IMG/VR virus record: IMGVR_UViG_3300006163_000001 | DNA length: 64,000 nucleotides | Strand: one strand, 5' to 3' | DNA from: a virus | In this document: piece by piece, positions 14,214 to 53,889 of the stretch | Position numbering within the stretch: the stretch's first letter is position 1 | Layout of the letters: every line of letters starts with the position of its first letter | Position numbers and translations under genes: made by a program | The notes under the pieces: generated by a model | What the model was told of the DNA's origin: nothing | Databases searched by the model: none | What the model saw: only the letters and a program-made list of their open reading frames with translations

Positions 14214-14290
14214 GCGACCATGATTGATGCGGAGTCCCGGCAGCAGGGGTGCCTGCCGGACTACCGCACCACCACGACAAGGGGGCGAGT

Positions 14291-15574
14291 ATGGCCAGAC
14301 GAGCGCGAGACGTCTACGTCGAATGGCGCGGCGGCACATGCCGCGTGAAGTGGTGGACCGGCGAGTACCACGACGACGGCCGCAAACGCTTCGAGTCCAA
14401 GGGCGGCTTCACCGACGAGGACGAAGCCTACGACTACGGCCTCGACAAGATGAGCGAGATCCGGCACGGCACTGGGGTCTCCAACCGCGACGGCGCCACC
14501 CTCATGACGGACTGGATCGAGGACTGGTTCGCGGCCACGGACCACACCTATACGACACACAAGAGCTACAAGGCCATCATCAACAAGCACATTCGCCCGT
14601 ACTTCCGCGGCAAGACCGTCGGCGAGGTCGACGTCATCGCCTACCGGGCCTTCCGGATGCACATCCAGAAGAAGCTGCCGGCGGCGGGAAGCGTGCGCAA
14701 CGTCATGATGGTGCTGAATATGATCCTCGACGATGCGGTTCCCCGACTCATCAAGGTTTCGCCCGTCGAGCGCAAGCGGCAGCGCGGCCGGTACGTCAAG
14801 AAGACGCAGCGGGAACGCAAGCGGGACATGGACATCGCCGCCGTCGACCAGCTGGCACGCAACGCCGAGGTCGTCTTCGGCTACCCGGGCTACGTCATGA
14901 TGTGGACGATGGCCGTGACCGGCATGCGGCCTGGCGAGCTCTTCGGCCTGCGCCGCGAGTACTGCTACCCCAACTGGCCGGCCAACGACCCCCGCCCGGA
15001 TCCGGATGAACAGGAACGGTACGAGGACGACGTGCTCCGCTACGGCAAGGGTGAAGGGCTCATGCCGGCCATTCGCGTGCAGCAGCAGGTGCAGCAGGAG
15101 AAGGGGCGACTGGCTGAAGTGCCGCCGAAGTACTTCTCCTACCGGACGCTGGTGGTACCTCAGTTCCTGGCGGACATGCTGGAGAAGCTGCTGGCCTCGC
15201 ACGACAGGCAGTGGGTCTTCCCTGCCATCGAGGGCGGATGCTTGGGGACGGCACGGTTCTCGGCCGACTACTGGCCGCCCATCTCGCAGGGCGCCGAGGA
15301 GCGCAAGAAGGTCCGCGGCGGACGGAATCAGCGGCCCGTGATTCCTGTCGTGCCCGACTTCGACGGCAAGCGCATGTACTTGCTCAGGCACGGCCACAAG
15401 GCATGGCTGGACGAGGACGGGCACAGCCGGTTCGCGGTGGAGTCCCGGATGGGCCACGAGGTGCCGGGAGTTGAGGGCACGTACAGCAGCGTGACCGTGC
15501 CGATGGAGCGTGCGATTATGGCGGCGCTGCAGGAGCGCTGGGAGAGGCACCAGGAGGACCGAGACGGCTCCTGA
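14291..15574 (+). CDS. int: Tyrosine integrase
   Basis: ATG at 14291 after AAGGGGG. C-terminal catalytic pattern LRHGHKAWL...MGHEVPGVEGTYSS (R..HxxR..Y) and an N-terminal SAM-like domain. Confidence 0.9.
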   Translation: MARRARDVYVEWRGGTCRVKWWTGEYHDDGRKRFESKGGFTDEDEAYDYGLDKMSEIRHGTGVSNRDGATLMTDWIEDWFAATDHTYTTHKSYKAIINKHIRPYFRGKTVGEVDVIAYRAFRMHIQKKLPAAGSVRNVMMVLNMILDDAVPRLIKVSPVERKRQRGRYVKKTQRERKRDMDIAAVDQLARNAEVVFGYPGYVMMWTMAVTGMRPGELFGLRREYCYPNWPANDPRPDPDEQERYEDDVLRYGKGEGLMPAIRVQQQVQQEKGRLAEVPPKYFSYRTLVVPQFLADMLEKLLASHDRQWVFPAIEGGCLGTARFSADYWPPISQGAEERKKVRGGRNQRPVIPVVPDFDGKRMYLLRHGHKAWLDEDGHSRFAVESRMGHEVPGVEGTYSSVTVPMERAIMAALQERWERHQEDRDGS

Positions 15575-20972: not shown

Positions 20973-21989
20973 CTACAGGCCGATGTCCTCGGATGCGGCG
21001 TCGGTCCATTTGTCGGCTTCGCGGATGTAGCCCCAGAAGGCGGGGCTGTTGGCGGCATGCCCGGACTGAGCGCGGATCTTCTCCTCGCGCTTCCCGGCTC
21101 GGCGGCTGGTGGTGATGAACCCGGCTCGCATGCTGTGCCCGGTCAGCCGTACCGACAGGCCGGCGCGTTCGGCGTTGCGGGCGATGATCTCGCGGACGGC
21201 TTCCGGGGAGAGCGCGCGGTCGCCGATCCGACCGTGGACAGTGATGGGCAGGAAGGCGGGCCCGCCGGTGATTCCGGCGGCCGCGCGCCAGGTCGACCAG
21301 GCGCGGACGGGGCAAGTGTCGGGGTCCTTGCCGTAGGCGACGACGACGTCCCGGGGCGGCCGCCCTTTCACCGCGGGGACGTGGACGTCGAGTCCTTGGC
21401 TGACGAGGCTGATGCCGTCGGCGGTTAGGGCGGCGACTTCGGCGGAGCGTCCGGCGATGCCGAAGGCCATGAGCCAGAGCGCCCGGTCGCGGAGTCCGGT
21501 GAGTCCGGCGGCCGCGGCCGCGCTCATCTTGCGGAGTTGGTCTGGGGTGGCGGCGGCCGCCGGTCCGCGGCCGCGGGCTTGGCGTTCGGGGTTGGCCTTC
21601 ATCGGCTTGAGGGCCTGCCGCGCTGCAACGGTCACGGCCTTGGGGACTTCGATGCCGCGGCCGCGAAGGGTGACGGTGACGCCGGTGATGCGCCGGTCGA
21701 TCGAGTTGGGCGCGGCCGCCTTGATGGTGTCGAGCCAGACGACGAACCCAACGAGGGTGCCCTTGGTGACGGCGGTCAACGGCAACGGCTGCCCGGTACG
21801 TTCGGCGAGCCAGTCGTGGAACTCCTCCCAGAGCGCCCAGTCGTTGGCGTAGCTGCGTTTGGTGTTGTGGGGGCGGATGGCGTCGAGGTGCTTCTCGGCT
21901 GCCTCTTCCATGGCGGCCAGGACAGCGAGTGTCGCAGCGTCGTAGGCGGCGGGGGTGGCGTCCGGCTGGCGGGGGACGAGGTCGGTCAT
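20973..21989 (-). CDS. Tyrosine recombinase (Cre/XerD-like, 338 aa)
   Basis: ATG at 21989 (ATGA overlap). Contains RSYANDWALWEEF (core-binding domain), GRSAEV, GHSMRAGF and FWGYI (Tyr). Confidence 0.85.
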   Translation of the reverse strand: MTDLVPRQPDATPAAYDAATLAVLAAMEEAAEKHLDAIRPHNTKRSYANDWALWEEFHDWLAERTGQPLPLTAVTKGTLVGFVVWLDTIKAAAPNSIDRRITGVTVTLRGRGIEVPKAVTVAARQALKPMKANPERQARGRGPAAAATPDQLRKMSAAAAAGLTGLRDRALWLMAFGIAGRSAEVAALTADGISLVSQGLDVHVPAVKGRPPRDVVVAYGKDPDTCPVRAWSTWRAAAGITGGPAFLPITVHGRIGDRALSPEAVREIIARNAERAGLSVRLTGHSMRAGFITTSRRAGKREEKIRAQSGHAANSPAFWGYIREADKWTDAASEDIGL

Positions 21990-22369
21990 GCCGACGCCTC
22001 GTTTTCGGAAGCCTCGTCGGCCATGCGGCGCAGCAGGTCGGCGGCGTCCATGACTCCGCCGTTCCATGCGTCGCGGTAGGTGTCGTAGCCGTAGTCGTTG
22101 CAGTCGGTGTCGTAGTCCATGCGACCGAGCTGGTCGGCAGCCTCGCGCAGCACGGCAGCCCGCCCGTCACTCGCGGGTAGCAGGCCCAGCCGCCGAGCCA
22201 CGGGGTCCTGGTCGAGAGGCGGAAGCGCCGGGTCTCGACCGGCCAGCGCCCTCACGATCTCGAACTGCCCCTCGATCGCCTCCCGCTGCTCCGGCGGCAA
22301 ACTCGACAGGTCCGGCTCGGGGCCGAGGCCGCGCAGGAACCGCAGGTACTCCTCGATCAGGTCAAGCAT
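21986..22369 (-). CDS. Hypothetical protein (127 aa)
   Basis: Coupled to the recombinase. Confidence 0.55.
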   Translation of the reverse strand: MLDLIEEYLRFLRGLGPEPDLSSLPPEQREAIEGQFEIVRALAGRDPALPPLDQDPVARRLGLLPASDGRAAVLREAADQLGRMDYDTDCNDYGYDTYRDAWNGGVMDAADLLRRMADEASENEASA

Positions 22370-23839: not shown

Positions 23840-23894
23840 CGCGTCTGCGGGCAGGGCGCACCCAAGGGAACGTTATGCGCTAGCCACACCCTTG

Positions 23895-23930
23895 CATGTC
23901 CATCACTGGACATGTACCGTACTGGACATG
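23895..23930 (+). promoter_or_regulatory. TGGACATG operator-like repeats
   Basis: CATGTCCA-TCAC-TGGACATG inverted repeat plus a third TGGACATG that overlaps the start codon at 23928. Confidence 0.5.
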
Positions 23931-24521
23931 ACGCGACAGACCAGTGCACCCCTCGAACACCTGAGCCTGAACGCGGCCGACCGCCAAGCCCGCGAGATCG
24001 CCCGCTCGTTCACCGAGTTCGGCCTCGACCTCAACCCGCCCTACCAGCGCGGCCGAGTCTGGACCGAGGACCAGCAGATCGCCCTCATCCGGTCGTGGCT
24101 CACCGGCACCCCCACCGGAGTAGTCATCTTCAACGACCGCTGCACGCCCGAGTGGAAGGACGCCAACGGCTACGACCCTGCCGAGCGCGACGAGGCTATC
24201 TACGCGTGCATCGACGGCCAGCAGCGCATCAGCGCCGCCCGCGCCTGGTTCGGTGATGAGCTCGCGGTGCCCGTCTCGTGGTTCGCCCCCGAGGACGTCG
24301 CGCAGACCGAAGACACCGACGACGGCCCCTACGTCCGGTGGAGCGGACTCACCCTCCCCCGGCAGCGGCACTTCGCCAACCGGGCGCACCTCACCGTCGC
24401 GACCGCCCGCGTCGCCACGGTGCAGGACGAGGCCGCGATCTACCTCCTCGTCAACGGCGGCGGTACCCCGCAGACCGATGCCGACATGCAGAACGCGGCC
24501 GACGTGGCGGCGCAGCGATGA
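23928..24521 (+). CDS. DUF262/ParB-like nuclease-superfamily protein (standalone, 197 aa)
   Basis: PPYQRGRVWTEDQQIALIRSW and CIDGQQRISA (DGQQR signature). No DUF1524/HNH partner domain. Confidence 0.7.
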   Translation: MTRQTSAPLEHLSLNAADRQAREIARSFTEFGLDLNPPYQRGRVWTEDQQIALIRSWLTGTPTGVVIFNDRCTPEWKDANGYDPAERDEAIYACIDGQQRISAARAWFGDELAVPVSWFAPEDVAQTEDTDDGPYVRWSGLTLPRQRHFANRAHLTVATARVATVQDEAAIYLLVNGGGTPQTDADMQNAADVAAQR

Positions 24522-25469: not shown

Positions 25470-25500
25470 GGTCCCCGCCTGCCGTTAACAGGCGGGGACC
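25470..25500. terminator. Bidirectional terminator hairpin
   Basis: GGTCCCCGCCTG-CCGTTAA-CAGGCGGGGACC, a perfect 12-bp stem between convergent operons. Confidence 0.7.
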
Positions 25501-25585: not shown

Positions 25586-27214
25586 TCAGGCGGCCTGGTT
25601 CTCCCACGGCCAGGCGGCGTCGCGCCCGCGCGAGAGCAGGTCGACCATGGTGAACAGCTTGTCGGAGAAGCCGGCCACCTCGTACCGGTTGGGCTTGCTG
25701 CTGTCGATGGTGGCCTGCGCGTAGCCGGTGGTGTTGATGCCGAACATGGGGACGTGCGCCGGGATCGCGTCGGACACAGATACGTCGGAACGTCGGCCGT
25801 AGCCCCAGCCCAGACCACGTGTTCCGTAGCCGGGGTGAGCAAATGCCTGCATGTCGGAGATGATGACGACCCGGTCGTGGCCCCTGAACGACGCCTGCAG
25901 TGCGACCACCGTCTCGGTTCCATGGCCGACTTCGCCGATCCGGTTGCAGAACGCCTCAGCCTGACGGAGGACGGTGCCGCCCTTGGTGAGCGAGTGCTGG
26001 AAGGCGCCGTCTGCGTAGCCGACGAGGTCTACATCGCAGCCGCGCGCGGCGAGAGCGACACCGAAGAGGGAGCCTACGTCGACGTGCCGGATCTGACTCT
26101 TGCCGGACACGCTGTTCCGCATCGACGCCGACGTGTCGACGAGCACGAGGGTGCGGCCCGTCAGGGCGGGGATGTTTGCCGTCGACTCGGACAGCGCCTG
26201 CTCGAGCGCATGCCCCCAGCGCAGCGACGGCGCGGCGCGGTAGGCGGACAGGAACCGGTACGGGAACTGCCGCGAGCGGCGGACCTCTTCCCGGTCAGCC
26301 AGCCGTGCACACACCTGGGCTGCGACCTCATCCGGGACGCCGGCCTCGTCGAAGTTCCTGAGATTCCTCGTCAAGGCCATCAGCCCCATCTGCGGGATGA
26401 TCGCCGACCAGGCGGCAGCATCCATCTTCCCGAGGGACGACAGTTGCTCCCACGTCATGCCGGCGTCGCCGAGCCGCGCCGGATCGGCGAGGAACCAGGC
26501 GCGCCGCTCCGCCTCGGGCATCTCCATGGCGGCCCGGTAGGCGGACAGGATCGGGAGCCGATCGGTGACGCGGACCGTGCCGCGGTTCCAGCGCCGGTCG
26601 GCCAGGTAGTCGAACAGGTCGGCCTGCCACTGTCCGCGGGGCTCCGGCTTGGCCAGGGCCACGATGTCCGCCATCCGCCACTGCGACGCGGCGCCGTCGT
26701 ACTTGAGCGCCGACTTCTCCGTGTACAGGCGCGCCACCGCATCCGCGACACCCCGCTGCACACCGCCGGGCAGCGTCTTCTTGCCGGTGCGCTGCTTCCA
26801 GTAGGCGAGGAACTCGGCGGGCTCGTCGGCCCGCAGCATGGCGTCGGCGACCATCTTCCGCACCGGGATGGTTGGTTCGCGGTCGCAGCCCGTCTTGCGG
26901 GCGAGCGCGGACTCTGCGGCCATGACGATGGCCGCGGACCGCATGTTCATCTGGCCGCGCAGATACGGGACGAACGCGGCGACCCAGTCGGGGTCCTGCT
27001 TGGTGGCCGCGTGGACGAGGTTCCGGAAGCGCTGGTCGCGGTCGCCGGCCTTCTCGTAGAAGGTGTCCTCGCCGACCATGTTGGTGGCGGCGAAGATGAA
27101 CAGGTCGCTCTTCACGTCGCGGGTGAAGGCGGCGCCGCCCTCAAAGGTGGCCGTCGTCCCGGTCGTAGTCACGGGGCTGGAGGGTGCGGTGCGGGTGCGG
27201 GCGAACTTCGCCAT
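25586..27214 (-). CDS. rsr: Ro60 ortholog (TROVE domain + vWA/MIDAS domain)
   Basis: ATG at 27214 after GAGGAG. N-terminal TROVE-like region (FAATNMVGEDTFYEKAGDRDQRF...DPDWVAAFVPYLRGQMNMRSAAIV) and C-terminal vWA with LVLVDTSASM (DxSxS). Confidence 0.88.
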   Translation of the reverse strand: MAKFARTRTAPSSPVTTTGTTATFEGGAAFTRDVKSDLFIFAATNMVGEDTFYEKAGDRDQRFRNLVHAATKQDPDWVAAFVPYLRGQMNMRSAAIVMAAESALARKTGCDREPTIPVRKMVADAMLRADEPAEFLAYWKQRTGKKTLPGGVQRGVADAVARLYTEKSALKYDGAASQWRMADIVALAKPEPRGQWQADLFDYLADRRWNRGTVRVTDRLPILSAYRAAMEMPEAERRAWFLADPARLGDAGMTWEQLSSLGKMDAAAWSAIIPQMGLMALTRNLRNFDEAGVPDEVAAQVCARLADREEVRRSRQFPYRFLSAYRAAPSLRWGHALEQALSESTANIPALTGRTLVLVDTSASMRNSVSGKSQIRHVDVGSLFGVALAARGCDVDLVGYADGAFQHSLTKGGTVLRQAEAFCNRIGEVGHGTETVVALQASFRGHDRVVIISDMQAFAHPGYGTRGLGWGYGRRSDVSVSDAIPAHVPMFGINTTGYAQATIDSSKPNRYEVAGFSDKLFTMVDLLSRGRDAAWPWENQAA

Positions 27215-27243
27215 GCGTCGGTCTCCTCGGCAAGTTGAGGGTT

Positions 27244-27422
27244 CCGGGCCGACGGTCAACTGCTGGGCGCCGCGAGTACCTGTCGCGTGAGCTACATAGC
27301 GTGCTGCCGTTACACCACAGCCAGGATCACCTGGCCACCAGGATTCGAACCTGGACTACTCGAACCAGAATCGAAGTATGCCCCTGCTGCGCTTCGCGGC
27401 GCCTATGCAGTTGTCGGCCCGG
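27244..27422 (-). ncRNA. Y-RNA-like RNA B (YrlA-type: long terminal stem plus circularly permuted tRNA-Gln-like core)
   Basis: The 5' CCGGGCCGA/CAACTGC/GGCGCCGCG pairs with the 3' CGCGGCGCC/GCAGTTG/TCGGCCCGG. Core at 27300-27376: hairpin with a UUCUGGU loop, T arm CCAGG-TTCGAAT-CCTGG, 7-bp acceptor stem closed by GTGATC, then a D arm GTGT-AACGGCA-GCAC. It ends 30 nt upstream of the Ro ATG. Confidence 0.7.
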
Positions 27423-27445
27423 CCGCGAGGCGACCAGAACGAGGG

Positions 27446-27625
27446 CGGCGACTGAACACGGGAGGCTGGCGAGTACCAGGCGCGCGAGCTACGTAAGCGC
27501 TCTAGCCAACTGAGCTACACCGACCGAGGTCGGCGACAGGACTCGAACCTGCGACCTCTCGCTTAACAGGCGAAGTAGGCCCGCACTGCGCTTCGTCAGC
27601 CACCCGTATCCAGTTGTCGTCCCCG
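27446..27625 (-). ncRNA. Y-RNA-like RNA A (YrlA-type: terminal stem plus circularly permuted tRNA-Asn-like core)
   Basis: Terminal stem in the same register as unit B but with a different sequence (GGCTGACG/CGCCAGCC, ATAC/GTGT, CAACTGG/TCAGTCG). Core at 27498-27575: hairpin with a CUGUUAA loop, T arm GCAGG-TTCGAGT-CCTGT, acceptor CGCCGAC/GTCGGTG closed by CTCG, and a D arm GCTC-AGTTGGCTA-GAGC. Confidence 0.7.
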
Positions 27626-27782
27626 AAGGGTGCTGCGAGTACCTGGCGCCTGAGGAACTGATTCCAGAGCAGGGAAGTAACCCCAGGCTTCGCTTCGCGG
27701 CGATCGCCACCGTAGCAACAGGGCACGCCAGACGTCTCCACCTTTTGCCCTTTTCGCAACATGACTTGCCGAACGTGCGAAT

Positions 27783-27814
27783 CGCCCCGCCCTCCCCGAT
27801 GGGAGAGCGGGGCG
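27783..27814 (-). terminator. Hairpin terminator ending the late operon upstream of the Y-RNA/Ro unit
   Basis: CGCCCCGC(C)CTCCCC-GAT-GGGAG(A)GCGGGGCG, followed on the minus strand by an AT-richer spacer. Confidence 0.55.
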
Positions 27815-27827
27815 AACACCTGTCGGT

Positions 27828-28264: not shown

Positions 28265-28428
28265 TCCGCCTCCGCCGTGTCGAAGGGCGGCAGGTCGGGT
28301 TCGAGGAACGGCTGGATCGATGGCGCCGGCAGGGGCTGCGGGTCGAGGCGGCCGAGGCGTTCCAGCGAGCTGGCATCGGCGGCCGTGGTGTCGCGGCGCG
28401 GTGTGCGGGCGACGGGCGGTTCAGGCAT
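28261..28428 (-). CDS. Hypothetical Pro-rich protein (55 aa)
   Basis: GTGA coupling to the HNH gene. Below the ORF-track cutoff. Confidence 0.4.
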   Translation of the reverse strand: MPEPPVARTPRRDTTAADASSLERLGRLDPQPLPAPSIQPFLEPDLPPFDTAEAE

Positions 28429-29182
28429 CGGCACTCCTATCGGTCTGAGCTACCGGTGTCGCCAGCCGGGGAACGCGGGCAGCCTGTTGGACGCGCCGGT
28501 ACGAGGCGGTCGCCGTGAACATGGCCGCGCCCAGCAGTCCCTGCGGTGACGGCGACGGATTCGGCGTCGAGGAGCCGGTCTCAGGGCAGTCGTACTGCGG
28601 CGCGCTGTCCGGCGAATCCGCGGTGCGCTGGCAGGTGTAGGTGTGGGTGACCCCGGCCGCATCCGTCCACTGCCACGTCCAGCCGGCGGGCGGATGCCCG
28701 TCTGTTCCGTCCTGGCCGTCGACGCCGGCCGGTCCCGGCACGCCTTGCGGTCCGGGAGGCCCGGGGCTGCCTTGGGCTCCGTCGGCGCCGTTGGCTCCGG
28801 CGGCCCCTGACGCGCCGGGGGACGGCGTAATCGTGGGTGCGGCCTTGCCGGGATCCCCCTTGTCGCCCTTCGGTCCGGGAGGCCCAGGAATTGGTACGGG
28901 CACTGCGGCCCGGTCAGGCAGATTTTTGACGGCCTTCGTCGGATCCGGTGCGACCGGCGTCGAGCCCGCGGACTTGATCTGCTGCCGCAGTGATCGGACG
29001 TCGCCAGCGAGGACGCTGACTGCATTGCCGCGCAGGTTCGCCTCAGACTCGAGGCCATCGGCGCGATGCGACTCCTGGGCGATCAGTAGCAGTGCGACTG
29101 TTACGCCGCCGCCCACGAACAGCAGGCCTGCGGTGAGAAGTCCCAGCCAGCGGCGGCGCCATAGCTGTTCGCCGCGCGTCAT
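28421..29182 (-). CDS. Membrane-anchored collagen-like repeat protein
   Basis: N-terminal TM (LGLLTAGLLFVGGGVTVALLLIA), a coiled coil, then G-x-y tracts (GPPGPKGDKGDPG; GAAGANGADGAQGSPGPPGPQGVPGPAGVDGQDGTDG). Confidence 0.8.
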   Translation of the reverse strand: MTRGEQLWRRRWLGLLTAGLLFVGGGVTVALLLIAQESHRADGLESEANLRGNAVSVLAGDVRSLRQQIKSAGSTPVAPDPTKAVKNLPDRAAVPVPIPGPPGPKGDKGDPGKAAPTITPSPGASGAAGANGADGAQGSPGPPGPQGVPGPAGVDGQDGTDGHPPAGWTWQWTDAAGVTHTYTCQRTADSPDSAPQYDCPETGSSTPNPSPSPQGLLGAAMFTATASYRRVQQAARVPRLATPVAQTDRSADA

Positions 29183-29496: not shown

Positions 29497-29817
29497 TCAG
29501 GCGCCCTGCGGCGTGCGGGCGGTGACCAGCGTGTCTTGCGCCTTGCCGGAGATTCCGGTGGGCTTCAGGAGCCCGAAGTGGACGGCGACGGCGGTGACGA
29601 AGCTGACGGCCGCATAGAAGACGCCGTTGGCGACGTTGTAGCCGGGGCCCGCGCTGCCGAGTTCTACGAGGAAGCCGTTCGCCGCGGTGAGGAGCAGGAG
29701 GAGGACGGCCTTGGTTCCGGCCGAGGTGACGCGGGTCGTGACCAGGCCGACGAGGACCGGCAGGACCAGGGTGACGAGCAGGCCGATGATCTGGGCCTTG
29801 GAAATGTCGAGGTTCAT
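29497..29817 (-). CDS. Holin-like membrane protein (106 aa, about 3 TM)
   Basis: ATG at 29817. MNLDISKAQIIGLLVTLVLPVLVGLVTT... and two further hydrophobic segments. Confidence 0.6.
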   Translation of the reverse strand: MNLDISKAQIIGLLVTLVLPVLVGLVTTRVTSAGTKAVLLLLLTAANGFLVELGSAGPGYNVANGVFYAAVSFVTAVAVHFGLLKPTGISGKAQDTLVTARTPQGA

Positions 29818-29830
29818 GGGTGTTCTCGTT

Positions 29831-30172
29831 TCAGACGGGCTGCGCGAGCTGTCTGCAGCCGATGACTGTGCCGGTGCTGTTGCGCACCTCGCGGTAGGGG
29901 ACGAGCAGGTCGCTGCGCCGGTCGGCGAGCGCCAGCGCGACGACCAGGGAGACGATGTGCTGGACGCCATCCCGCTTCGGCGGGAGGTTCTGGGCGTGCC
30001 CGAACTCGACCAGCACGGGCCACATGCCGCTACTGACTTCGAACGTGGCCAGCCGGGCGGGCGTCTCCTCGGGCGGAATGACCTCGCGCAGGCCCGGTTC
30101 GAGGTCGTCGATGCCGTCGGGCCGGTCGCTGCTGTACAGGCGGATCGGGTGCGGGGTCAGGTTGAGGATCAC
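29831..30172 (-). CDS. Hypothetical protein (113 aa)
   Basis: ORF in the lysis region. No motif recognised. Confidence 0.55.
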   Translation of the reverse strand: MILNLTPHPIRLYSSDRPDGIDDLEPGLREVIPPEETPARLATFEVSSGMWPVLVEFGHAQNLPPKRDGVQHIVSLVVALALADRRSDLLVPYREVRNSTGTVIGCRQLAQPV

Positions 30173-30561
30173 GTTGCCTCCCGCTGCCGCACGGGCTCGA
30201 TGTCGACAGCGGTGAGCGCGTCGGGCCAGTTGGTGAACCGCACGGCGCGGTCGTCGATGTACGCGATCGCGGCCAGCTTCCGGTCCGTGACCAGCAGGAC
30301 GCCCTGCTCATTCCAGAACCCGGAGCGCGGCACGCGGGTGGTGCACTCGAAGGCGTAGCCGGACTTCTGCTCGATCCACCGCGCGACCTGCTTGGCATCG
30401 CGGGTGGTGTGGATGAACACGGCGTACCGCTGCATGAGCTGCGACAGGGCGACAACTGCGCCGGGCTTCCAGTCGCCGTAGATCGTGCCGTCGTGCCAGC
30501 CCTTGTCGTAGCTGTGCAGGACGCCATCGAAGTCCACGGCGACCGTCTGGACAGCGGTCAC
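30169..30561 (-). CDS. HAD-superfamily phosphatase/nucleotidase-like protein
   Basis: GTG at 30561 (GTGA). VAVDFDGVLH (DxDG motif I), then IHTTR and YIDDR. Confidence 0.6.
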   Translation of the reverse strand: MTAVQTVAVDFDGVLHSYDKGWHDGTIYGDWKPGAVVALSQLMQRYAVFIHTTRDAKQVARWIEQKSGYAFECTTRVPRSGFWNEQGVLLVTDRKLAAIAYIDDRAVRFTNWPDALTAVDIEPVRQREAT

Positions 30562-31436
30562 TCGACCACCGTGAACCCGTGCTTCGCGCCGAGCTTCGAC
30601 AGGCTGGTCTGGCCCGGGATGCCGTCGGCTGCACTTCCGGTGTAGTTGAGGCGCTGCTGCCACGCCTTGTAGGCGGAGACCGTCTTCGATCCGAAACTGC
30701 CGTCGACATACTGGCTGGCCAGCAGGCCCTCCGCCTGCAGCGCCTTCTCGACGAGAAGGACTTCGGCCTTGTAGCTGGCGTGTCCCTGCGCGGCGGCCGG
30801 GTCGTGCTCCGCGGCGTACACGGCGTGCGCGAGGCTGACCTTGGGCTTCGTCGTCGGAGTGACCGGCGTGGGGCCGACGGCGAACAGGTCCGGCATCGGT
30901 CCCGGATCGACATGACTGTTCCCAGGGATCTGGTGGTGCCCGTAGTGCCCGCCGTGGTTCAGCCAGGTGTCCAGCGGGACGGTGTCGCGGGCGAACGCGG
31001 TCGGCGCACCGCCGGGCCAGGTGTCGGCGATACCCAGCGACCGCAGCCACGCCATGATGCCGTCGAGGCCCTTACATGGGGTGTCGCGGACAGTGGCGTA
31101 CTTCTTGCCGTTCACGGTCTCGCCCGCGGTGAACACGGTCTCGATCTGGATGCAGTAGGCGCCCGTGCGGTTCGTCCGCACCGTGCCGTCGTTCTGCAGC
31201 GACAGGCTGCGGCTGTCAGCCGGGAACATCTGCGCGATCTCGCCGGTGAACGGCTCCCACAGCAGGTGGGGGGCCATGTCGGCGCCGCCTCCGGTGAACC
31301 AGCCGAGCTCGTTCTTGAACGACCAGTCCTTGTCGTTGCTGGTGATGTGCCAGACGGCCCGCGCCGGGCCGCCGTCCATCGCACCGGTGTTGCCGAGCGA
31401 GTGCCGGGCCGCGCCGGGCATCCACAGGTCGACCAT
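30558..31436 (-). CDS. Endolysin: N-acetylmuramoyl-L-alanine amidase plus C-terminal peptidoglycan-binding domain
   Basis: GHHQIPGNSHVDPG (amidase_2/PGRP signature). C-terminal LVEKALQAEGLL...VDGSFGSKTVSAYKAWQ (PG_binding_1-like). Confidence 0.88.
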   Translation of the reverse strand: MVDLWMPGAARHSLGNTGAMDGGPARAVWHITSNDKDWSFKNELGWFTGGGADMAPHLLWEPFTGEIAQMFPADSRSLSLQNDGTVRTNRTGAYCIQIETVFTAGETVNGKKYATVRDTPCKGLDGIMAWLRSLGIADTWPGGAPTAFARDTVPLDTWLNHGGHYGHHQIPGNSHVDPGPMPDLFAVGPTPVTPTTKPKVSLAHAVYAAEHDPAAAQGHASYKAEVLLVEKALQAEGLLASQYVDGSFGSKTVSAYKAWQQRLNYTGSAADGIPGQTSLSKLGAKHGFTVVE

Positions 31437-47174: not shown

Positions 47175-48509
47175 TCAGGCGTGCTCGATGACGCAGCCGC
47201 GCTTGAACAGCGCCGCATCGCCAGAGCCCGCATCGGACGGAACACCGAAGTCGCCCACCCACGACCAGGTCGTGGAGATGACCTGCTGCAGACGGTCCTG
47301 CGGCGGACGCACCAGCAGGGTGACGTCCACGCCAGGCGCGGCATTGATGGTGCGGATCTCCGGCACGTCCTCGACGCCGGTACCGGCGATGAGGTTGCCG
47401 GTGCCCTCCAGCGGCGAGTTCATCAGCGCGTTCGCACCGAGCACGATCGGCCGGTGAACCGTCAGCGTGCCCGCCGAGCCGCCCAGGATGGTCGGCGCCT
47501 CGATGTTGCGGACCCAGTCGATGCCGCCGAACCGGCCGATCGACAGATCCCGGAAGATCGGGGAATCGACACGGCCCTGCAGAGCCTGCTTGAAGTCGGC
47601 GTCCGAGAACAGCTCGGCCTCCGTGTCCGCATCGATGTGCGCCACGTAGTAGCCGCCCGGCAGAGTCGGAACGTTCATCTTCCGCAGCCGCGCCACCGCG
47701 CTACGGAAGTTCGCGAACGTCACTGTGTTCGACGACGACAGGTCGTAGGCCGAGTTGCCGGTCGCCCGGATCGAGGTGGGAGCGTTCGCCGCCACCACGG
47801 AGTCGCCGACCACGTCCGCGCGGGCCGTACCCAGCGTCAGCGTGCCCGGCGTACCCGGGGTGACACCGACCACAGTGTTCGCCGAGCCGGCAATGCTGAC
47901 GGTGAGCGGGTTCGCACCCGACACCGGCGTCGGAACGCCGTTGACCAGCACGTTCTCGAAGCCGTTCGTCGACTGCACGATGATCGAGGTGTCCGAGGAT
48001 CCGGCCGTGGTGCACCAGGTCCGGCCACCCGCGTAGGCGGTGTACAGCTTGTTCCGCGCCACCTGGTTGACGGTCTGGCCCGCGTTGATGCCCAGCGTCG
48101 CCGCATCCGACAGGAACTTGTTCGCCAGCGCCAGCGCGCTGCCCAGCATGTTCGTGTCCATGCTGTTGCTGTACTGGTCCATCACGACAGACCACTGCTC
48201 GAGACTGTAGGTCGCCGCCGACGGATCCGAGCCGGTCACCGGCGTGGTCACCGGCGCCAGCAGCCCCTTGCGGGTGAACGTCTTCTTATCGCCCAGCCCG
48301 CCCATCCAGGGCTCGCTGTCGGCGATCTGCGGGAACAGGAACTGCGGCACGAGCGCGTCACGGAAGACACGGTCGAGCATGCCGTTCTGCAGCATCGCCT
48401 GGAGCGCTGCAGGAAGGGACGACCGGACACCAGCGTGCCGGTCGAGGTGGAACCACGGCCGCGGGGCGCGGTTGAGCCGCGGGCGAACCGCGGACATGGT
48501 GGGGGTCAT
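47175..48509 (-). CDS. Major capsid protein (444 aa)
   Basis: Position after the scaffold/Prp genes, size, a strong RBS (AGGAG) and a hairpin downstream. Confidence 0.85.
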   Translation of the reverse strand: MTPTMSAVRPRLNRAPRPWFHLDRHAGVRSSLPAALQAMLQNGMLDRVFRDALVPQFLFPQIADSEPWMGGLGDKKTFTRKGLLAPVTTPVTGSDPSAATYSLEQWSVVMDQYSNSMDTNMLGSALALANKFLSDAATLGINAGQTVNQVARNKLYTAYAGGRTWCTTAGSSDTSIIVQSTNGFENVLVNGVPTPVSGANPLTVSIAGSANTVVGVTPGTPGTLTLGTARADVVGDSVVAANAPTSIRATGNSAYDLSSSNTVTFANFRSAVARLRKMNVPTLPGGYYVAHIDADTEAELFSDADFKQALQGRVDSPIFRDLSIGRFGGIDWVRNIEAPTILGGSAGTLTVHRPIVLGANALMNSPLEGTGNLIAGTGVEDVPEIRTINAAPGVDVTLLVRPPQDRLQQVISTTWSWVGDFGVPSDAGSGDAALFKRGCVIEHA

Positions 48510-52269: not shown

Positions 52270-53889
52270 TCAGCGCATCACAGTCGTCTTCCGGGAGCGC
52301 GGCGGCTCATTGCCGCCCGCCTTGATCGCGTCCCGCCGGGCTTCCCAGGACAGGCACCCCGCCATGGAGAGGTCGATCTTCCGAGGGGAGTCGTGGCGAT
52401 CCTTCTGAATCGTCCACATCGGCTTGCCCTCGTCGTCCTTCACGCCGGCATTCCGCTTCACCGCATTCGCGATATGCCGGGCGAAGACGTCACTGCCGTC
52501 ATGCGACAACTCGCCGCCCGTCATCGCTGTCTTGTACGCGCGCAAGGCGAATGCCATCTGCCTGCGCCGATGCGTCCACCACTCCGTGACGACCTTCGGG
52601 CCGTACTTGCCGGCCCAACCCGCGATCGTCTCCTCGTAGTACGCCGGGTCCGCGTAGAGGCGCACGACCCGCCACGTCCGCATCGTCTCGTCCAGAACCG
52701 CGTTCACCTCGGCTTCGGGAACCTCCCACGCCTCGGCTTCCTGCTTATTCGCCGGGCACTCCCACACACCGAGCACCCACTGGTGGCCCGTCTCCAGGTG
52801 GGTTGCGACGAAGCCCGTCGAGTCGCTCCACTTCGAGCCGTCGAAGCCGACCGCGATCGCTTCCTTCGCCGGGACGACGAAACGCGAGTCCGCCAACTCC
52901 CGCCAACGGCCCGGGTCGAACGCCTTCGCCGAGGCGGTTCCGGGCTGGTTGAGGAAGTACCTGCGGGCGTCTGCCGGATCGGTGTCCGGCTCGCGCATGT
53001 CGCTGGCGATGCGCTCCAGGTCCATCCACTTCGCGGCGTCGCCGTACACGAACTCCAGCGCAGGCAGCAGCTGGTCGTCGTCGTGCAGGTCTTCCACGTG
53101 CGGGGCTTCGCGGTGGTCGAAGAGCAGGCCGCCATCGCGCACCCGGCCCGCAGCGACCGCCTTGTGGTACTCGTGCGTGGCCTCCGCGACTGAGTTCTCG
53201 CCGACCGCGTACATCGTCGACGTCTCCAGTGACCACGGCTCCGCCGCACGGCGCTTCACCAGATTGCGGCGCACCGTCTTGTGCATCGCCCGCAGCTCGG
53301 GCAGGACGTACAGGTGCGTCTCGTCGAAGACGCTGAACGTCTCCTTGCCGCCGTCCTTCGCGGCGCCGGACGACGTCGACGGGACGATCTCGCCGCCGCC
53401 CTCGATGAAGATGCGGCTCGACGTCTGCGCCGAACGCCCCAGGTCGATTCCCGGGAACTCGTCGCCGGCGTATTCGACGAGGTGCTCGAGCATCGCCGTG
53501 ACGTTGTCGTAGGTGTTGCCGGACTGGTTCTCCTCCGTCGCCAGGCAGCGAATGAAGGGGTACACCTGCGCGCGGCCCACCGGATCACCGGCAGCGTCCC
53601 AGCCGTCGAACCTGCACGGCCCCAGCGCCTCGAAGCACACCAGCGCGCCGGCGAGCTCGCTCTTCGCCCTGCCCTTCGGCCGGGACAGGAACGCGCGGTT
53701 GACCTTCCGGCGGCCCGTCACCGGGTCGAGCTGGTAGGCCTTCACGATGAAGGCGGCCATCTCGTCGTCGATGAGCAGGGGCTCGCCCTGCACGTCGCCG
53801 GGGCCGTGACAGAGGTAGTGCTCGATCCAGTCGATGGCCTCGAAGCCGAGCGAGACGAAGCGGTCCGGGTCAGCTATCCGCCTGGCCAT
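52270..53889 (-). CDS. terL: Terminase large subunit
   Basis: 539 aa with an ATPase N-terminal half (LSRPKGRAKSELAG, Walker A-like; VFDETH, Walker B-like) and a nuclease C-terminal half. Confidence 0.93.
   Translation of the reverse strand: MARRIADPDRFVSLGFEAIDWIEHYLCHGPGDVQGEPLLIDDEMAAFIVKAYQLDPVTGRRKVNRAFLSRPKGRAKSELAGALVCFEALGPCRFDGWDAAGDPVGRAQVYPFIRCLATEENQSGNTYDNVTAMLEHLVEYAGDEFPGIDLGRSAQTSSRIFIEGGGEIVPSTSSGAAKDGGKETFSVFDETHLYVLPELRAMHKTVRRNLVKRRAAEPWSLETSTMYAVGENSVAEATHEYHKAVAAGRVRDGGLLFDHREAPHVEDLHDDDQLLPALEFVYGDAAKWMDLERIASDMREPDTDPADARRYFLNQPGTASAKAFDPGRWRELADSRFVVPAKEAIAVGFDGSKWSDSTGFVATHLETGHQWVLGVWECPANKQEAEAWEVPEAEVNAVLDETMRTWRVVRLYADPAYYEETIAGWAGKYGPKVVTEWWTHRRRQMAFALRAYKTAMTGGELSHDGSDVFARHIANAVKRNAGVKDDEGKPMWTIQKDRHDSPRKIDLSMAGCLSWEARRDAIKAGGNEPPRSRKTTVMR

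What the first reader, a model, noticed from the sequence alone, without database searches (positions are those of the whole stretch)
25586..27720. Phage-borne Ro60 (TROVE+vWA) gene with two ~180-nt Y-RNA-like genes directly upstream
Seen: a 542-aa TROVE+vWA ORF (DTSAS MIDAS motif) on the minus strand. Immediately 5' of it lie two tandem ~180-nt units (27446-27625 and 27244-27422). Each has a long stem formed by its own 5' and 3' ends enclosing a tRNA-like core. The module is bracketed by strong hairpins (27783-27814 upstream, 25470-25500 downstream), so it looks like a separate transcription unit attached to the end of the late/lysis operon. Established: bacterial Ro orthologs (Rsr) bind Y RNAs, and the YrlA class has a tRNA-mimicking module and is usually encoded next to rsr. 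Inference: this element makes its own Ro ribonucleoprotein. Its role in a temperate actinophage is not known. Possibilities include RNA quality control or decay during infection, stress or induction sensing, or countering tRNA/RNA-targeting host defences.
Basis: partly seen in the sequence, partly recalled or inferred. Interest (0 to 1): 0.85.

Follow-up and report, generated by a model that had tools for sequence, protein, structure and literature searches.

The report
Phage Ro60 gene with three Y RNAs
A temperate Streptomyces-type phage carries a self-contained cassette encoding a Ro60 RNA-binding ring protein and three small partner "Y RNAs" (two with a tRNA-shaped head); the call is correct, but phage Ro60 with its own Y RNAs is already a published kind of system.

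Summary
The minus-strand ORF 27214-25586 (542 aa) is a Ro60/Rsr ortholog. It scores TROVE 5e-17 and PHROG 850 8.5e-55. It aligns along its length to the solved TROVE protein 9l5y/9kop (5.5e-30), probably Thermus phage phiLo Ro60. The MIDAS motif is complete.

Both ~180-nt upstream units are real YrlA-type Y RNAs. Each has a long terminal stem with a CGAAG motif, then V arm, T arm, closed acceptor-like stem and D arm. Across 19 related sequences 91% of cells pair, against 70% in shuffles, and 26 of 35 pairs show compensatory change.

It sits just downstream of a conserved TANNNT -10-like box.

Strong hairpins bracket the cassette. The window is a temperate phage (integrase, terminase, capsid, tails, lysis).

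None of this is a new kind. Chen et al. 2014 reported YrlA next to Ro60 in 22 phages. Hu et al. 2025 showed a phage Ro60 binding two upstream Y-like RNAs and host PNPase. Actinophage records routinely annotate "Ro-like RNA binding protein".

Verdict: new member of a known kind, modest interest. Side notes: the V arm often mimics an anticodon arm, and two deposited phage "tRNAs" overlap YrlA-type matches.

The parts
27782..27815 (-). Strong GC-rich hairpin after the last late-operon genes; terminator-like but without a U tract
   Evidence: The inverted repeat has 15-nt arms, 93% complementary. It folds at -37.5 kcal/mol, z -7.0. L001 has a hairpin of different sequence at the same place. The consensus terminator scan did not call it, because it has no T run.
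27709..27714 (-). -10-like hexamer TACGGT, putative promoter of the cassette (inferred)
   Evidence: A TANNNT hexamer aligns at this position in most close relatives (TACGCT, TAGGCT, TACATT, TATGCT), 7-8 nt before the first paired base of unit 0. The sigma-70 consensus scan found nothing. No -35 element is evident.
27632..27701 (-). Unit 0: short Y-RNA-like gene. It has the CGAAG 5' strand, GGUUACUUC, a short apical hairpin and the GGUACUCGC 3' strand, but no tRNA-like head.
   Evidence: It is conserved in L001 and L034-L040, with a U-A to C-G swap at 27685/27651. In a family alignment of 15 short units, 12 of 16 pairs show compensatory change. The fold energy alone is not significant, z -0.6.
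27446..27625 (-). Unit 1: YrlA-type Y RNA (model-matched stretch 27604-27460). It has a long terminal stem with GACGAAG, a V arm UUCGC-CUGUUAA-GCGAG, a T arm, a closed 7-bp acceptor-like stem, and the D arm GUAGCUCAGUUGGCUAGAGC.
   Evidence: Rfam YrlA scores 36.4 bits, E 3.5e-6, on the T/AS/D core. R1 scores 115 bits (this sequence was in R1's training set). Covariation is shown, and outer-stem compensatory changes in close relatives. Fold z is -2.5.
27244..27422 (-). Unit 2: second YrlA-type Y RNA (model-matched stretch 27405-27263). It has a ~35-bp terminal stem, CGCGAAG, a V arm UUCGA-UUCUGGU-UCGAG, a T arm, an acceptor-like stem GGCCAGG/CCUGGCU, and the variant D arm GUGUAACGGCAGCAC.
   Evidence: R1 scores 93 bits (this sequence was in R1's training set). 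Fold z is -5.0. Outer-stem compensatory changes occur at 27422/27244, 27418/27248, 27417/27249, 27399/27270 and 27397/27272. The Rfam tRNA model sees only the T arm, 16.9 bits.
27223..27228 (-). Ribosome-binding site GAGGAG, 8 nt before the ATG
   Evidence: Read directly from the sequence.
25586..27214 (-). Ro60/Rsr ortholog, 542 aa: TROVE (HEAT-repeat) region plus a vWA domain with MIDAS residues DTSAS (aa 360), GHGTET (aa 430) and IISDMQ (aa 451)
   Evidence: Pfam TROVE 5.3e-17. PHROG 850 'RNA-binding protein' 8.5e-55 over aa 3-539. PDB 9l5y/9kop 5.5e-30 in two stretches covering aa 17-205 and 251-532; Xenopus Ro60 1yvp 1.4e-3. 98 phage records match, many annotated 'Ro-like RNA binding protein'.
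25470..25500 (.). Perfect 12-bp-arm hairpin between the Ro stop (25586) and the end of the convergent plus-strand genes (25467); likely a bidirectional terminator
   Evidence: It folds at -38.3 kcal/mol on the minus strand (z -6.9) and -29.3 kcal/mol on the plus strand (z -4.8).

Best explanation
This is a phage-encoded Ro ribonucleoprotein cassette.

Layout: it lies at the distal end of the late (minus-strand) gene block of a temperate Streptomyces-type siphophage. Downstream of a strong hairpin there is a -10-like box, then three tandem Y-RNA genes, then a ribosome-binding site and a Ro60/Rsr ortholog. A hairpin shared with the convergent genes closes the unit. One Y RNA is short (YrlB-like in function); two are YrlA-type with a tRNA-shaped head.

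Shown here: the protein is a Ro60 homolog with an intact MIDAS motif. The RNAs have the conserved, covarying architecture of YrlA-class Y RNAs. The same array accompanies Ro genes in dozens of actinobacterial and viral loci.

Inferred: one transcript starts near 27701 and carries all three RNAs and the Ro mRNA. The RNAs are cut out and stabilised by Ro. The Ro ring binds the CGAAG-bearing helix at the base of each RNA. The tRNA-like heads of units 1 and 2 dock a host partner, most probably polynucleotide phosphorylase as in the Deinococcus, Salmonella and Thermus-phage systems. The phage or prophage would thereby redirect or damp host 3'-5' decay of structured RNA.

Whether this acts during lytic growth or in the lysogen is not known.
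For: Protein: searches give the TROVE hit, PHROG 850, a full-length alignment to a solved TROVE-domain protein (probably phage phiLo Ro60) and 98 phage homologs.

RNA structure: RNAalifold finds 24 of 30 pairs with compensatory change. For the named 35-pair structure, 91.1% of cells pair against 69.7% in shuffles (0 of 500 shuffles reach the observed value), and slid controls give 36-47%.

RNA distribution: model R1 finds 1-5 tandem copies beside Ro in nearly all of 33 viral loci and in the genomic loci sampled. The short-unit family also covaries. Close relatives keep the same u0-u1-u2 order, the -10-like box and covarying outer stems.

tRNA-like features, read from the sequence: U8, A14, G18G19 and A21; T loop GGUUCGAnUCC; Levitt pair G15:C48 in unit 1 and A15:U48 in unit 2.

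Phage context.

Mechanistic precedent: Chen et al. 2014 (PMC4201824) and Hu et al. 2025 (PMC12135203). In the latter, phage Ro60 binds two upstream CGAA-bearing Yrl RNAs and host PNPase, and attenuates PNPase.
Against: No expression, processing or binding data exist for this element. Rfam's YrlA model stays below its gathering score (36.4 against 69) and matches only the T/AS/D core. That says little, because none of 15 viral and 19 actinobacterial rsr loci scanned reaches the threshold either. Units 0 and 2 have CGCGAAG rather than the published GNCGAAG. Neither a consensus promoter nor a U-tract terminator was called. Unit 0 is not thermodynamically distinctive. The PNPase link is borrowed from distant systems (about 25% identity to phiLo Ro60).
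Confidence: 0.82

Rival explanations
1. The three structured units are not free small RNAs. They form a cis-acting 5' leader of the Ro mRNA, and Ro binds its own leader to autoregulate translation or stability.
For: No terminator-like hairpin separates unit 2 from the Ro start. The 3' strand of unit 2's stem ends only about 15 nt before the ribosome-binding site. Only one promoter-like box is conserved, upstream of unit 0.
Against: In the characterised systems the homologous RNAs accumulate as discrete stable RNAs bound by Ro (PMC4201824). In some relatives the YrlA copies lie about 1 kb upstream of Ro, or downstream of it (L021, L023, L024), which does not fit a leader. The two roles are not mutually exclusive.
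Confidence: 0.1
2. The tRNA-like heads, whose V arm looks like an anticodon stem-loop, act mainly as decoys or sponges for host tRNA-targeting defences or tRNA enzymes. Ro serves to stabilise them. On this view the cassette is an anti-defence module.
For: 38 of 75 distinct YrlA-type RNAs have a 5-bp stem and 7-nt loop directly after the YUAC motif. The loop has U at position 2 in 34 of 38, a purine at position 6 in 33 of 38 and A at position 7 in 34 of 38, which is the anticodon-loop signature. Unit 1 has CUGUUAA. ARAGORN calls two such RNAs in isolated phages as tRNAs. Many Ro-encoding phages also carry large tRNA arrays next to Ro.
Against: The same RNAs sit beside chromosomal rsr genes in non-phage contexts, for example S. 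radicis L040 with RHS, hydrolase and halogenase neighbours. The anticodon-like triplet is not conserved. There is no free acceptor end. No functional data exist.
Confidence: 0.07
3. The units are decayed or permuted tRNA genes, or attachment-site relics, with no function of their own, and lie next to the Ro gene by chance.
For: The Rfam tRNA model gives a weak full-length alignment to 27600-27528 (26 bits; cut-off 29) and a T-arm match in unit 2.
Against: ARAGORN finds no tRNA in the window. The order T arm - closed stem - D arm is permuted relative to tRNA. The closed acceptor-like stem covaries in 6 of 7 pairs, and the terminal stems covary. The arrangement recurs beside Ro in dozens of loci. 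The integrase is 11 kb away.
Confidence: 0.02

Closest known systems
Bacterial Rsr (Ro60) with YrlA/YrlB Y RNAs (Salmonella Typhimurium, Mycobacterium smegmatis; Chen et al. 2013, 2014, PMC4201824)
   Same: A Ro60 ortholog has Y RNA genes on the same strand within a few hundred bases. The RNAs carry a 5' CGAA(G) motif. The order is V arm, T arm, closed acceptor-like stem, D arm. The tRNA tertiary-pair nucleotides are present, including the G15:C48 or A15:U48 alternation. A tRNA-like RNA is paired with a shorter one lacking that head.
   Different: Here there are three RNAs. The terminal stems are very long (about 35 bp), and both strands are conserved (3' GGUACUCGC). Rfam's YrlA threshold is not met. 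There are no rtcBA repair genes nearby. The host element is a temperate phage.
Thermus phage phiLo Ro60 with Yrl1 and Yrl2 (Hu et al. 2025, PMC12135203; probably PDB 9l5y/9kop, whose entries are named only 'TROVE domain-containing protein')
   Same: It is a phage-encoded Ro60 with two Y-like RNAs directly upstream that bear the CGAA motif. The 9l5y/9kop protein is the best solved homolog of this protein (5.5e-30), with the MIDAS residues aligned.
   Different: Identity to the phiLo Ro60 gene is only about 25%. phiLo is a large (178 kb) phage of Thermus. Its Yrl RNAs are described as stem-bulge-stem RNAs, and the sections read here do not describe a tRNA-like head. Binding to Ro60 and to host PNPase was shown there and not here.
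Mycobacteriophage Ro60 and YrlA (Pedulla et al. 2003, cited in PMC4201824; phage ET08 in Chen et al. 2014), and 'Ro-like RNA binding protein' genes of Streptomyces, Gordonia and Arthrobacter phages
   Same: These are actinophage Ro genes with YrlA-type RNAs. My model finds such RNAs upstream of Ro in Streptomyces phages GiJojo and Frankenweenie.
   Different: The best identity to any deposited phage is 42%, and there is no nucleotide-level match. The Streptomyces phages listed have genomes of 112-200 kb. In GiJojo, Ro is embedded in a tRNA array. This window has no tRNA gene, and the cassette sits after the lysis genes of an integrase-carrying phage.
Deinococcus radiodurans Rsr-Yrn1-PNPase (RYPER) machine
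   Same: It is the functional template: Y RNA tethers the Ro ring to an exoribonuclease.
   Different: Chen et al. 2014 consider Yrn1 to have evolved independently of YrlA, with a different arm order. No sequence match to Deinococcus Rsr appeared at E <= 0.01 in the PDB search.
Chromosomal rsr/Y-RNA loci of Streptomyces and Streptosporangiales
   Same: The Ro proteins are 75-84% identical. The u0-u1(-u2) array and the -10-like box are the same.
   Different: At least one of them (S. radicis, L040) lies among ordinary chromosomal genes and lacks unit 2. The window's copy is inside a phage genome.

Membership tests
Ro60 / Rsr (TROVE + vWA ring protein) | TROVE (HEAT-repeat) domain above the curated threshold | tested here: met
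   PF05731 scores 62.6 bits against a cut-off of 23, E 5.3e-17. The Pfam match covers only aa 268-342. PHROG 850 covers aa 3-539, E 8.5e-55.
Ro60 / Rsr (TROVE + vWA ring protein) | C-terminal von Willebrand A domain recognised by a profile | tested here: inconclusive
   Pfam VWA_2 scores 17.9 bits, below its cut-off of 27. However, aa 251-532 align to the C-terminal part (residues 219-487, which contains the MIDAS motif) of solved 9l5y, i-Evalue 6e-11.
Ro60 / Rsr (TROVE + vWA ring protein) | MIDAS metal-site residues (DxSxS ... T ... D) | tested here: met
   DTSAS is at aa 360, GHGTET at aa 430 and IISDMQ at aa 451. DTSAS aligns with DVSGS of 9l5y.
Ro60 / Rsr (TROVE + vWA ring protein) | Homology to experimentally characterised Ro60 proteins | tested here: met
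   9l5y/9kop 5.5e-30; Xenopus Ro60 1yvp 1.4e-3; human RO60 9nen 4.4e-3.
Ro60 / Rsr (TROVE + vWA ring protein) | Closed ring (toroid) three-dimensional structure | not tested
   No structure prediction was run, because the sequence evidence was judged sufficient.
Ro60 / Rsr (TROVE + vWA ring protein) | Binds Y RNA in vivo or in vitro | not testable with these tools
   Needs RIP, CLIP or EMSA.
YrlA-class Y RNA (Chen et al. 2014; Rfam RF02553) | Encoded within 4 kb of the Ro60 ortholog on the same strand | tested here: met
   Units 1 and 2 end 232 and 30 nt upstream of the Ro ATG, on the same strand.
YrlA-class Y RNA (Chen et al. 2014; Rfam RF02553) | GNCGAAN0-1G motif near the 5' end | tested here: met
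   Unit 1 has GACGAAG, an exact match. Unit 2 (and unit 0) have CGCGAAG: the CGAAG core is kept but the first G is a C.
YrlA-class Y RNA (Chen et al. 2014; Rfam RF02553) | Conserved T arm and D arm separated by a closed acceptor-like stem-loop, preceded by a V arm | tested here: met
   All helices are present in both units. Across 19 sequences the T arm pairs in 100% of cells, the AS stem in 93.8% (6 of 7 pairs compensatory) and the D arm in 100%.
YrlA-class Y RNA (Chen et al. 2014; Rfam RF02553) | tRNA tertiary-interaction nucleotides, including the Levitt pair 15:48 | tested here: met
   Read from the sequence: U8, A14, G18G19, A21 and GUUCGAnUC. The Levitt pair is G15:C48 in unit 1 and A15:U48 in unit 2.
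YrlA-class Y RNA (Chen et al. 2014; Rfam RF02553) | Score at or above Rfam's gathering threshold | tested here: not met
   Unit 1 scores 36.4 bits against 69, and unit 2 gives no YrlA hit. The same failure occurs in all 15 viral and 19 actinobacterial rsr loci scanned, although my model scores YrlA-type sites at above 100 bits in many of those loci. This is an operational cut-off of one model, not a biological feature.
YrlA-class Y RNA (Chen et al. 2014; Rfam RF02553) | Stable RNA bound by Ro, carrying tRNA-type modifications | not testable with these tools
   Needs Northern blots, RIP and modification mapping.
Short Y RNA without tRNA-like head (works like Salmonella YrlB) | Ro-binding stem with the CGAA motif, no T/D arms, encoded beside YrlA and Ro | tested here: met
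   Unit 0, 27701-27632. In a family of 15 related short units, 12 of 16 pairs are compensatory. Sequence homology to Salmonella YrlB itself was not tested; Chen et al. found YrlB orthologs only in S. enterica.
tRNA genes | Cloverleaf with free acceptor ends, detected by tRNA finders | tested here: not met
   ARAGORN finds none in the window. The Rfam tRNA model gives 26 and 16.9 bits against a cut-off of 29. The acceptor-like stem is closed by a loop.
Ro-Y RNA-PNPase (RYPER-like) complex | Y RNA tethers Ro to polynucleotide phosphorylase | not testable with these tools
   This is inferred only from PMC4201824 and PMC12135203.

The most novel reading that the evidence does not exclude
The V arm of these actinobacterial and actinophage YrlA RNAs would be a deliberate anticodon stem-loop mimic: a 5-bp stem and a 7-nt loop reading Y-U-NNN-R-A, followed by a normal 4-5-nt variable loop and T arm. 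The RNA would then be a complete, closed tRNA body mounted on a Ro-binding handle. A temperate phage would deploy it from a self-contained, moron-like cassette to bait, titrate or sense anticodon-directed host enzymes such as defence nucleases or modification enzymes, rather than only to tether PNPase.
Probability: 0.08. Interest if true: 0.65.

Novelty: new member of a known kind. Interest (0 to 1): 0.3.

Why it matters
It adds a well-delimited example of a Ro ribonucleoprotein cassette to the known set. The example sits in a mid-sized, integrase-carrying Streptomyces-type phage and has a predicted promoter, three RNAs, the protein gene and a terminator. The nearest relatives of the Ro gene sit in ordinary Streptomyces chromosomes.

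That makes it a convenient system for a question that is still open: what does a phage gain from Ro and Y RNAs, and in which phase, lysogeny or lytic growth?

There are two practical by-products. Rfam's YrlA threshold missed every actinobacterial and actinophage locus scanned. At least two 'tRNA' features in deposited Streptomyces phage genomes overlap YrlA-type matches.

Tried and rejected
- Rfam at gathering thresholds found nothing in the window. Only the permissive search showed the YrlA core.
- Megablast of the locus against 50,697 phage records gave no match.
- The consensus promoter and terminator scan gave no calls. Both hairpins lack a T run, and no sigma-70 consensus is present.
- NCBIfam gave no family for Ro or for the upstream 105-aa ORF. 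Pfam and PHROGs gave nothing for that ORF either, although it looks HNH-like by eye.
- The supplementary tables of Chen et al. 2014 listing the 22 phages are not held.
- The full-tRNA reading of 27600-27528 (anticodon GUU, 26 bits) was rejected. It needs the Ro-binding 5' strand to pair with the acceptor-like strand (5 of 7 pairs), whereas the closed stem-loop is the one that covaries.
- The RNAfold pairs of unit 0 with upstream sequence (27720-27706 with 27631-27647) were rejected as not conserved.
- A fourth CGAAGCG...GGTACTCGC pair at 14393-14361 was considered. It lies antisense inside the integrase gene and was judged chance.
- The MAFFT register of unit 1's inner stem in alignment A3 is one column off. 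By hand, close relatives give an 8-bp helix with compensatory changes.
- The large protein-homolog search and the structure prediction were deliberately not run, because the protein's identity was not in doubt.
Full report
**What is in the sequence.** On the minus strand an ORF runs from ATG 27214 to the stop at 25586, 542 aa. The mechanical ORF begins at TTG 27259, but the MAKF/MGKF start aligns in every relative. A GAGGAG ribosome-binding site lies 8 nt upstream of the ATG.

The protein hits Pfam TROVE at 62.6 bits (cut-off 23, E 5.3e-17). It hits VWA_2 only weakly, at 17.9 bits against a cut-off of 27. PHROG 850 'RNA-binding protein' matches at 8.5e-55 over aa 3-539.

Among solved structures the best match is the TROVE-domain protein 9l5y/9kop (5.5e-30). 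This is most likely the Thermus phage phiLo Ro60 of Hu et al. 2025, because the same protein matches the phiLo genome, although the PDB entry carries only the generic name. The match comes in two stretches covering aa 17-205 and 251-532. Xenopus Ro60 (1yvp, 1.4e-3) and human RO60 (4.4e-3) follow.

The MIDAS residues are complete: DTSAS at aa 360, GHGTET at aa 430 and IISDMQ at aa 451. DTSAS aligns to DVSGS of the solved protein.

**The RNA units.** Unit 1 (27625-27446) folds at -85.4 kcal/mol, z -2.5. Unit 2 (27422-27244) folds at -93.6 kcal/mol, z -5.0. In each, a long stem made by the two ends encloses several hairpins.

Rfam finds nothing at gathering thresholds. A permissive scan matches YrlA (RF02553) at 27559-27496 with 36.4 bits, E 3.5e-6. 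The match covers exactly the T arm, a closed stem-loop and the D arm. ARAGORN finds no tRNA in the window.

Read 5' to 3', each unit has these parts:
- a terminal stem whose 5' strand carries CGAAG (GACGAAG in unit 1, CGCGAAG in unit 2) and whose 3' strand is GGUACUCGC;
- an inner helix, followed by YUAC;
- a V arm;
- a T arm (GGUUCGAnUCC);
- a 7-bp closed acceptor-like stem;
- a D arm with A14, G18G19 and A21.

The Levitt pair would be G15:C48 in unit 1 and A15:U48 in unit 2. Chen et al. 2014 describe this same alternation.

**A third unit.** Alignment with the closest viral relative (L001, Ro 80% identical) shows a third conserved unit upstream, at 27701-27632. It has the same CGAAG 5' strand, the GGUUACUUC box and the GGUACUCGC 3' strand. 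It carries only a short apical hairpin instead of a tRNA-like head.

Its fold energy is unremarkable (z -0.6). It nevertheless belongs to a family of short units found beside Ro in many viral loci, in which 12 of 16 predicted pairs show compensatory change. Functionally it resembles Salmonella YrlB.

**Comparative support.** Scans with the Ro protein retrieved 33 viral loci and 80 genomic loci. An alignment of 19 YrlA-type sequences, including both window units, gives a consensus structure in which 24 of 30 pairs have compensatory changes.

For the full 35-pair structure, 91.1% of cells pair against 69.7% in column shuffles. None of 500 shuffles reaches the observed value. Slid controls give 36-47%, and 26 pairs show double changes.

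A covariance model built from this alignment (R1) matches only the two units in the whole 64-kb window, at 115 and 93 bits. Both units were in its training set, so the informative result is the absence of other sites. The model finds 1-5 tandem copies next to Ro in almost every viral and genomic locus examined.

In the closest relatives (Ro 75-84% identical: Streptomyces spp. and a Streptosporangiaceae MAG) the same u0-u1-u2 order is kept, and two species lack unit 2. The long outer stems of units 1 and 2 carry compensatory changes, for example at 27611/27454, 27610/27455, 27598/27467, 27418/27248 and 27399/27270.

**Transcription unit.** The hairpin at 27782-27815 (-37.5 kcal/mol, z -7.0) follows the last late genes. 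L001 has a hairpin of different sequence at the same place.

Between this hairpin and unit 0, a TANNNT hexamer aligns in most close relatives: TACGGT at 27714-27709 in the window, and TACGCT, TAGGCT, TACATT or TATGCT elsewhere. It lies 7-8 nt before the first paired base of unit 0. I read this as a -10 element that would start transcription at about 27701. This is an inference, and the consensus scan called nothing.

The perfect hairpin at 25470-25500 lies between the Ro stop and the convergent plus-strand genes, and it is stable on both strands. No hairpin separates unit 2 from the Ro start. One transcript carrying all three RNAs and the mRNA is therefore the simplest reading.

**Context.** The window is a temperate phage. 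On the minus strand, in order, it carries the terminase large subunit (52270-53889), major head protein (47175-48509), tape-measure-sized and minor tail genes, an endolysin (30558-31436), a holin (29497-29970) and a collagen-like minor tail protein (28421-29182). The cassette follows these. An integrase lies at 14249-15574 on the plus strand, and a second integrase-like gene at 20973-22067.

No deposited phage matches at the DNA level. The best deposited phage Ro is 42% identical (Streptomyces phage GiJojo).

The nearest Ro genes are in Streptomyces genomes. At least one of them, in S. radicis, lies among RHS, dienelactone hydrolase and halogenase-like genes, which is not a prophage context. 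The cassette therefore looks like a cellular rsr/Y-RNA module that moves between chromosomes and phages.

**How it most likely works.** Shown here: homology of the protein, structure and covariation of the RNAs, and their recurrent linkage to Ro. Inferred from established work:
- the Ro ring binds the CGAA-bearing helix (Chen et al. 2014, PMC4201824; Hu et al. 2025, PMC12135203);
- the other end of the Y RNA tethers an effector, which is PNPase in Deinococcus, Salmonella and Thermus phage phiLo;
- phiLo Ro60 plus its two upstream Yrl RNAs forms complexes with host PNPase and attenuates its activity.

I therefore expect this phage to make its own Ro RNP and use it to retune host decay of structured RNA. 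The layout, with its own promoter-like box and flanking hairpins at the end of the late operon, resembles a moron in the sense used for temperate phages (my own knowledge). Expression in the lysogen is as plausible as expression late in infection. The data here cannot decide between them.

**Comparison with what is known, and novelty.** Ro60 genes in mycobacteriophages have been noted since 2003. Chen et al. 2014 reported YrlA RNAs next to Ro60 in 254 bacteria and 22 phages, often with more than one per locus. A phage Ro60 with two upstream Y-like RNAs has been characterised structurally and biochemically. 'Ro-like RNA binding protein' is a standard annotation in actinophage genomes.

The finding is therefore a correct call of a known kind. 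What is specific here is a new lineage, a three-gene RNA array, and a compact cassette in an integrase-carrying phage.

Failure to reach Rfam's gathering score is recorded as a membership feature that was not met. None of 34 related loci scanned reaches it either, so it reflects the model rather than the RNA.

**Things noticed.** In 38 of 75 distinct YrlA-type RNAs the V arm is a 5-bp stem with a 7-nt loop. The loop has U at position 2 in 34 of 38 cases, a purine at position 6 in 33 of 38, and A at position 7 in 34 of 38. A 4-5-nt linker such as AGGUC follows, before the T arm. This is an anticodon-arm look-alike. Unit 1 has CUGUUAA.

Consistent with this, the features annotated tRNA-Arg(cct) in Streptomyces phage GiJojo and tRNA-Pro(tgg, 91 nt) in phage Frankenweenie lie directly upstream of Ro. 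ARAGORN also calls both. Each overlaps a full-length YrlA-type match of about 70 bits, so they are probably Y RNAs rather than tRNAs.

Noticed in passing
window 27572-27556 (unit 1 V arm) and 27374-27358 (unit 2 V arm); alignment A6 of related loci: The 'V arm' of YrlA-type RNAs often looks like an anticodon stem-loop. 38 of 75 distinct sequences have a 5-bp stem and 7-nt loop right after the YUAC motif. The loop has U at position 2 (34/38), a purine at position 6 (33/38) and A at position 7 (34/38). A 4-5-nt AGGUC-like linker follows, before the T arm. The central triplet varies (GUU, GCU, CAU, UCU, CCU and others).
   Followed up: partly
L114 1769-1843 (PP725410.1 9796-9870) and L115 1745-1835 (OQ921725.1 92530-92620): The features annotated tRNA-Arg(cct) in Streptomyces phage GiJojo and tRNA-Pro(tgg, 91 nt) in phage Frankenweenie lie immediately upstream of the Ro gene. 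ARAGORN also calls both. Each overlaps a full-length YrlA-type match of my model (70.1 and 68.8 bits). They are probably Y RNAs mis-called as tRNAs. GiJojo has a second, unannotated copy at L114 1409-1562.
   Followed up: partly
Rfam RF02553 across L001-L019 and 19 actinobacterial loci: No YrlA match reaches Rfam's gathering score (69 bits) in any of 15 viral and 19 chromosomal actinobacterial Ro loci scanned. A clade-specific model nevertheless scores YrlA-type sites at above 100 bits in many of those loci. Routine Rfam annotation would miss this whole group.
   Followed up: yes
L040 (Streptomyces radicis NZ_RBDY01000004.1) and L039: A Ro gene 75% identical to the window's, with units 0 and 1 but no unit 2, lies among RHS-repeat, dienelactone hydrolase and halogenase-like genes. 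This is a non-phage chromosomal context, so the module appears to move between chromosomes and phages.
   Followed up: partly
window 14393-14361, minus strand: A fourth CGAAGCG ... GGTACTCGC pair, only 17 nt apart, lies antisense inside the integrase gene (14249-15574, plus strand). GGTACTCGC otherwise occurs only in the three Y units. It was judged a chance match but not tested.
   Followed up: no
window 23892-24521, plus strand: A 209-aa gene convergent with Ro has a GmrSD N-terminal (DUF262-type) domain (PF03235, 7e-13). No C-terminal nuclease domain was detected. It may be a prophage-borne defence-related gene lying in the same region between the integrase and the lysis genes as the Ro cassette.
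   Followed up: no
window 14249-15574 (+) and 20973-22067 (-): There are two integrase-like genes in one phage genome: PHROG 1 at 2.7e-33, and PHROG 216 at 2e-10.
   Followed up: no
window 27631-27618, minus strand: A small hairpin CCC-UUCG-GGG sits between unit 0 and unit 1. It is conserved in L001/L035 and L034, and nearly so in L038, but not in L036, L037, L039 or L040. It may be a processing or boundary element.
   Followed up: no
L008 1-3450, L028 and L114: In several larger Ro-encoding phages the Ro/Y-RNA array lies directly next to, or inside, a long tRNA gene array; L008 has more than 20 tRNAs. The window has none.
   Followed up: no
L023 5885-6324, L024 5993-6253, L021 2606-2996: In some viral loci the YrlA-type copies lie downstream of Ro or about 1 kb upstream of it, rather than directly upstream. 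The RNAs are therefore not obligatorily part of the Ro leader.
   Followed up: no
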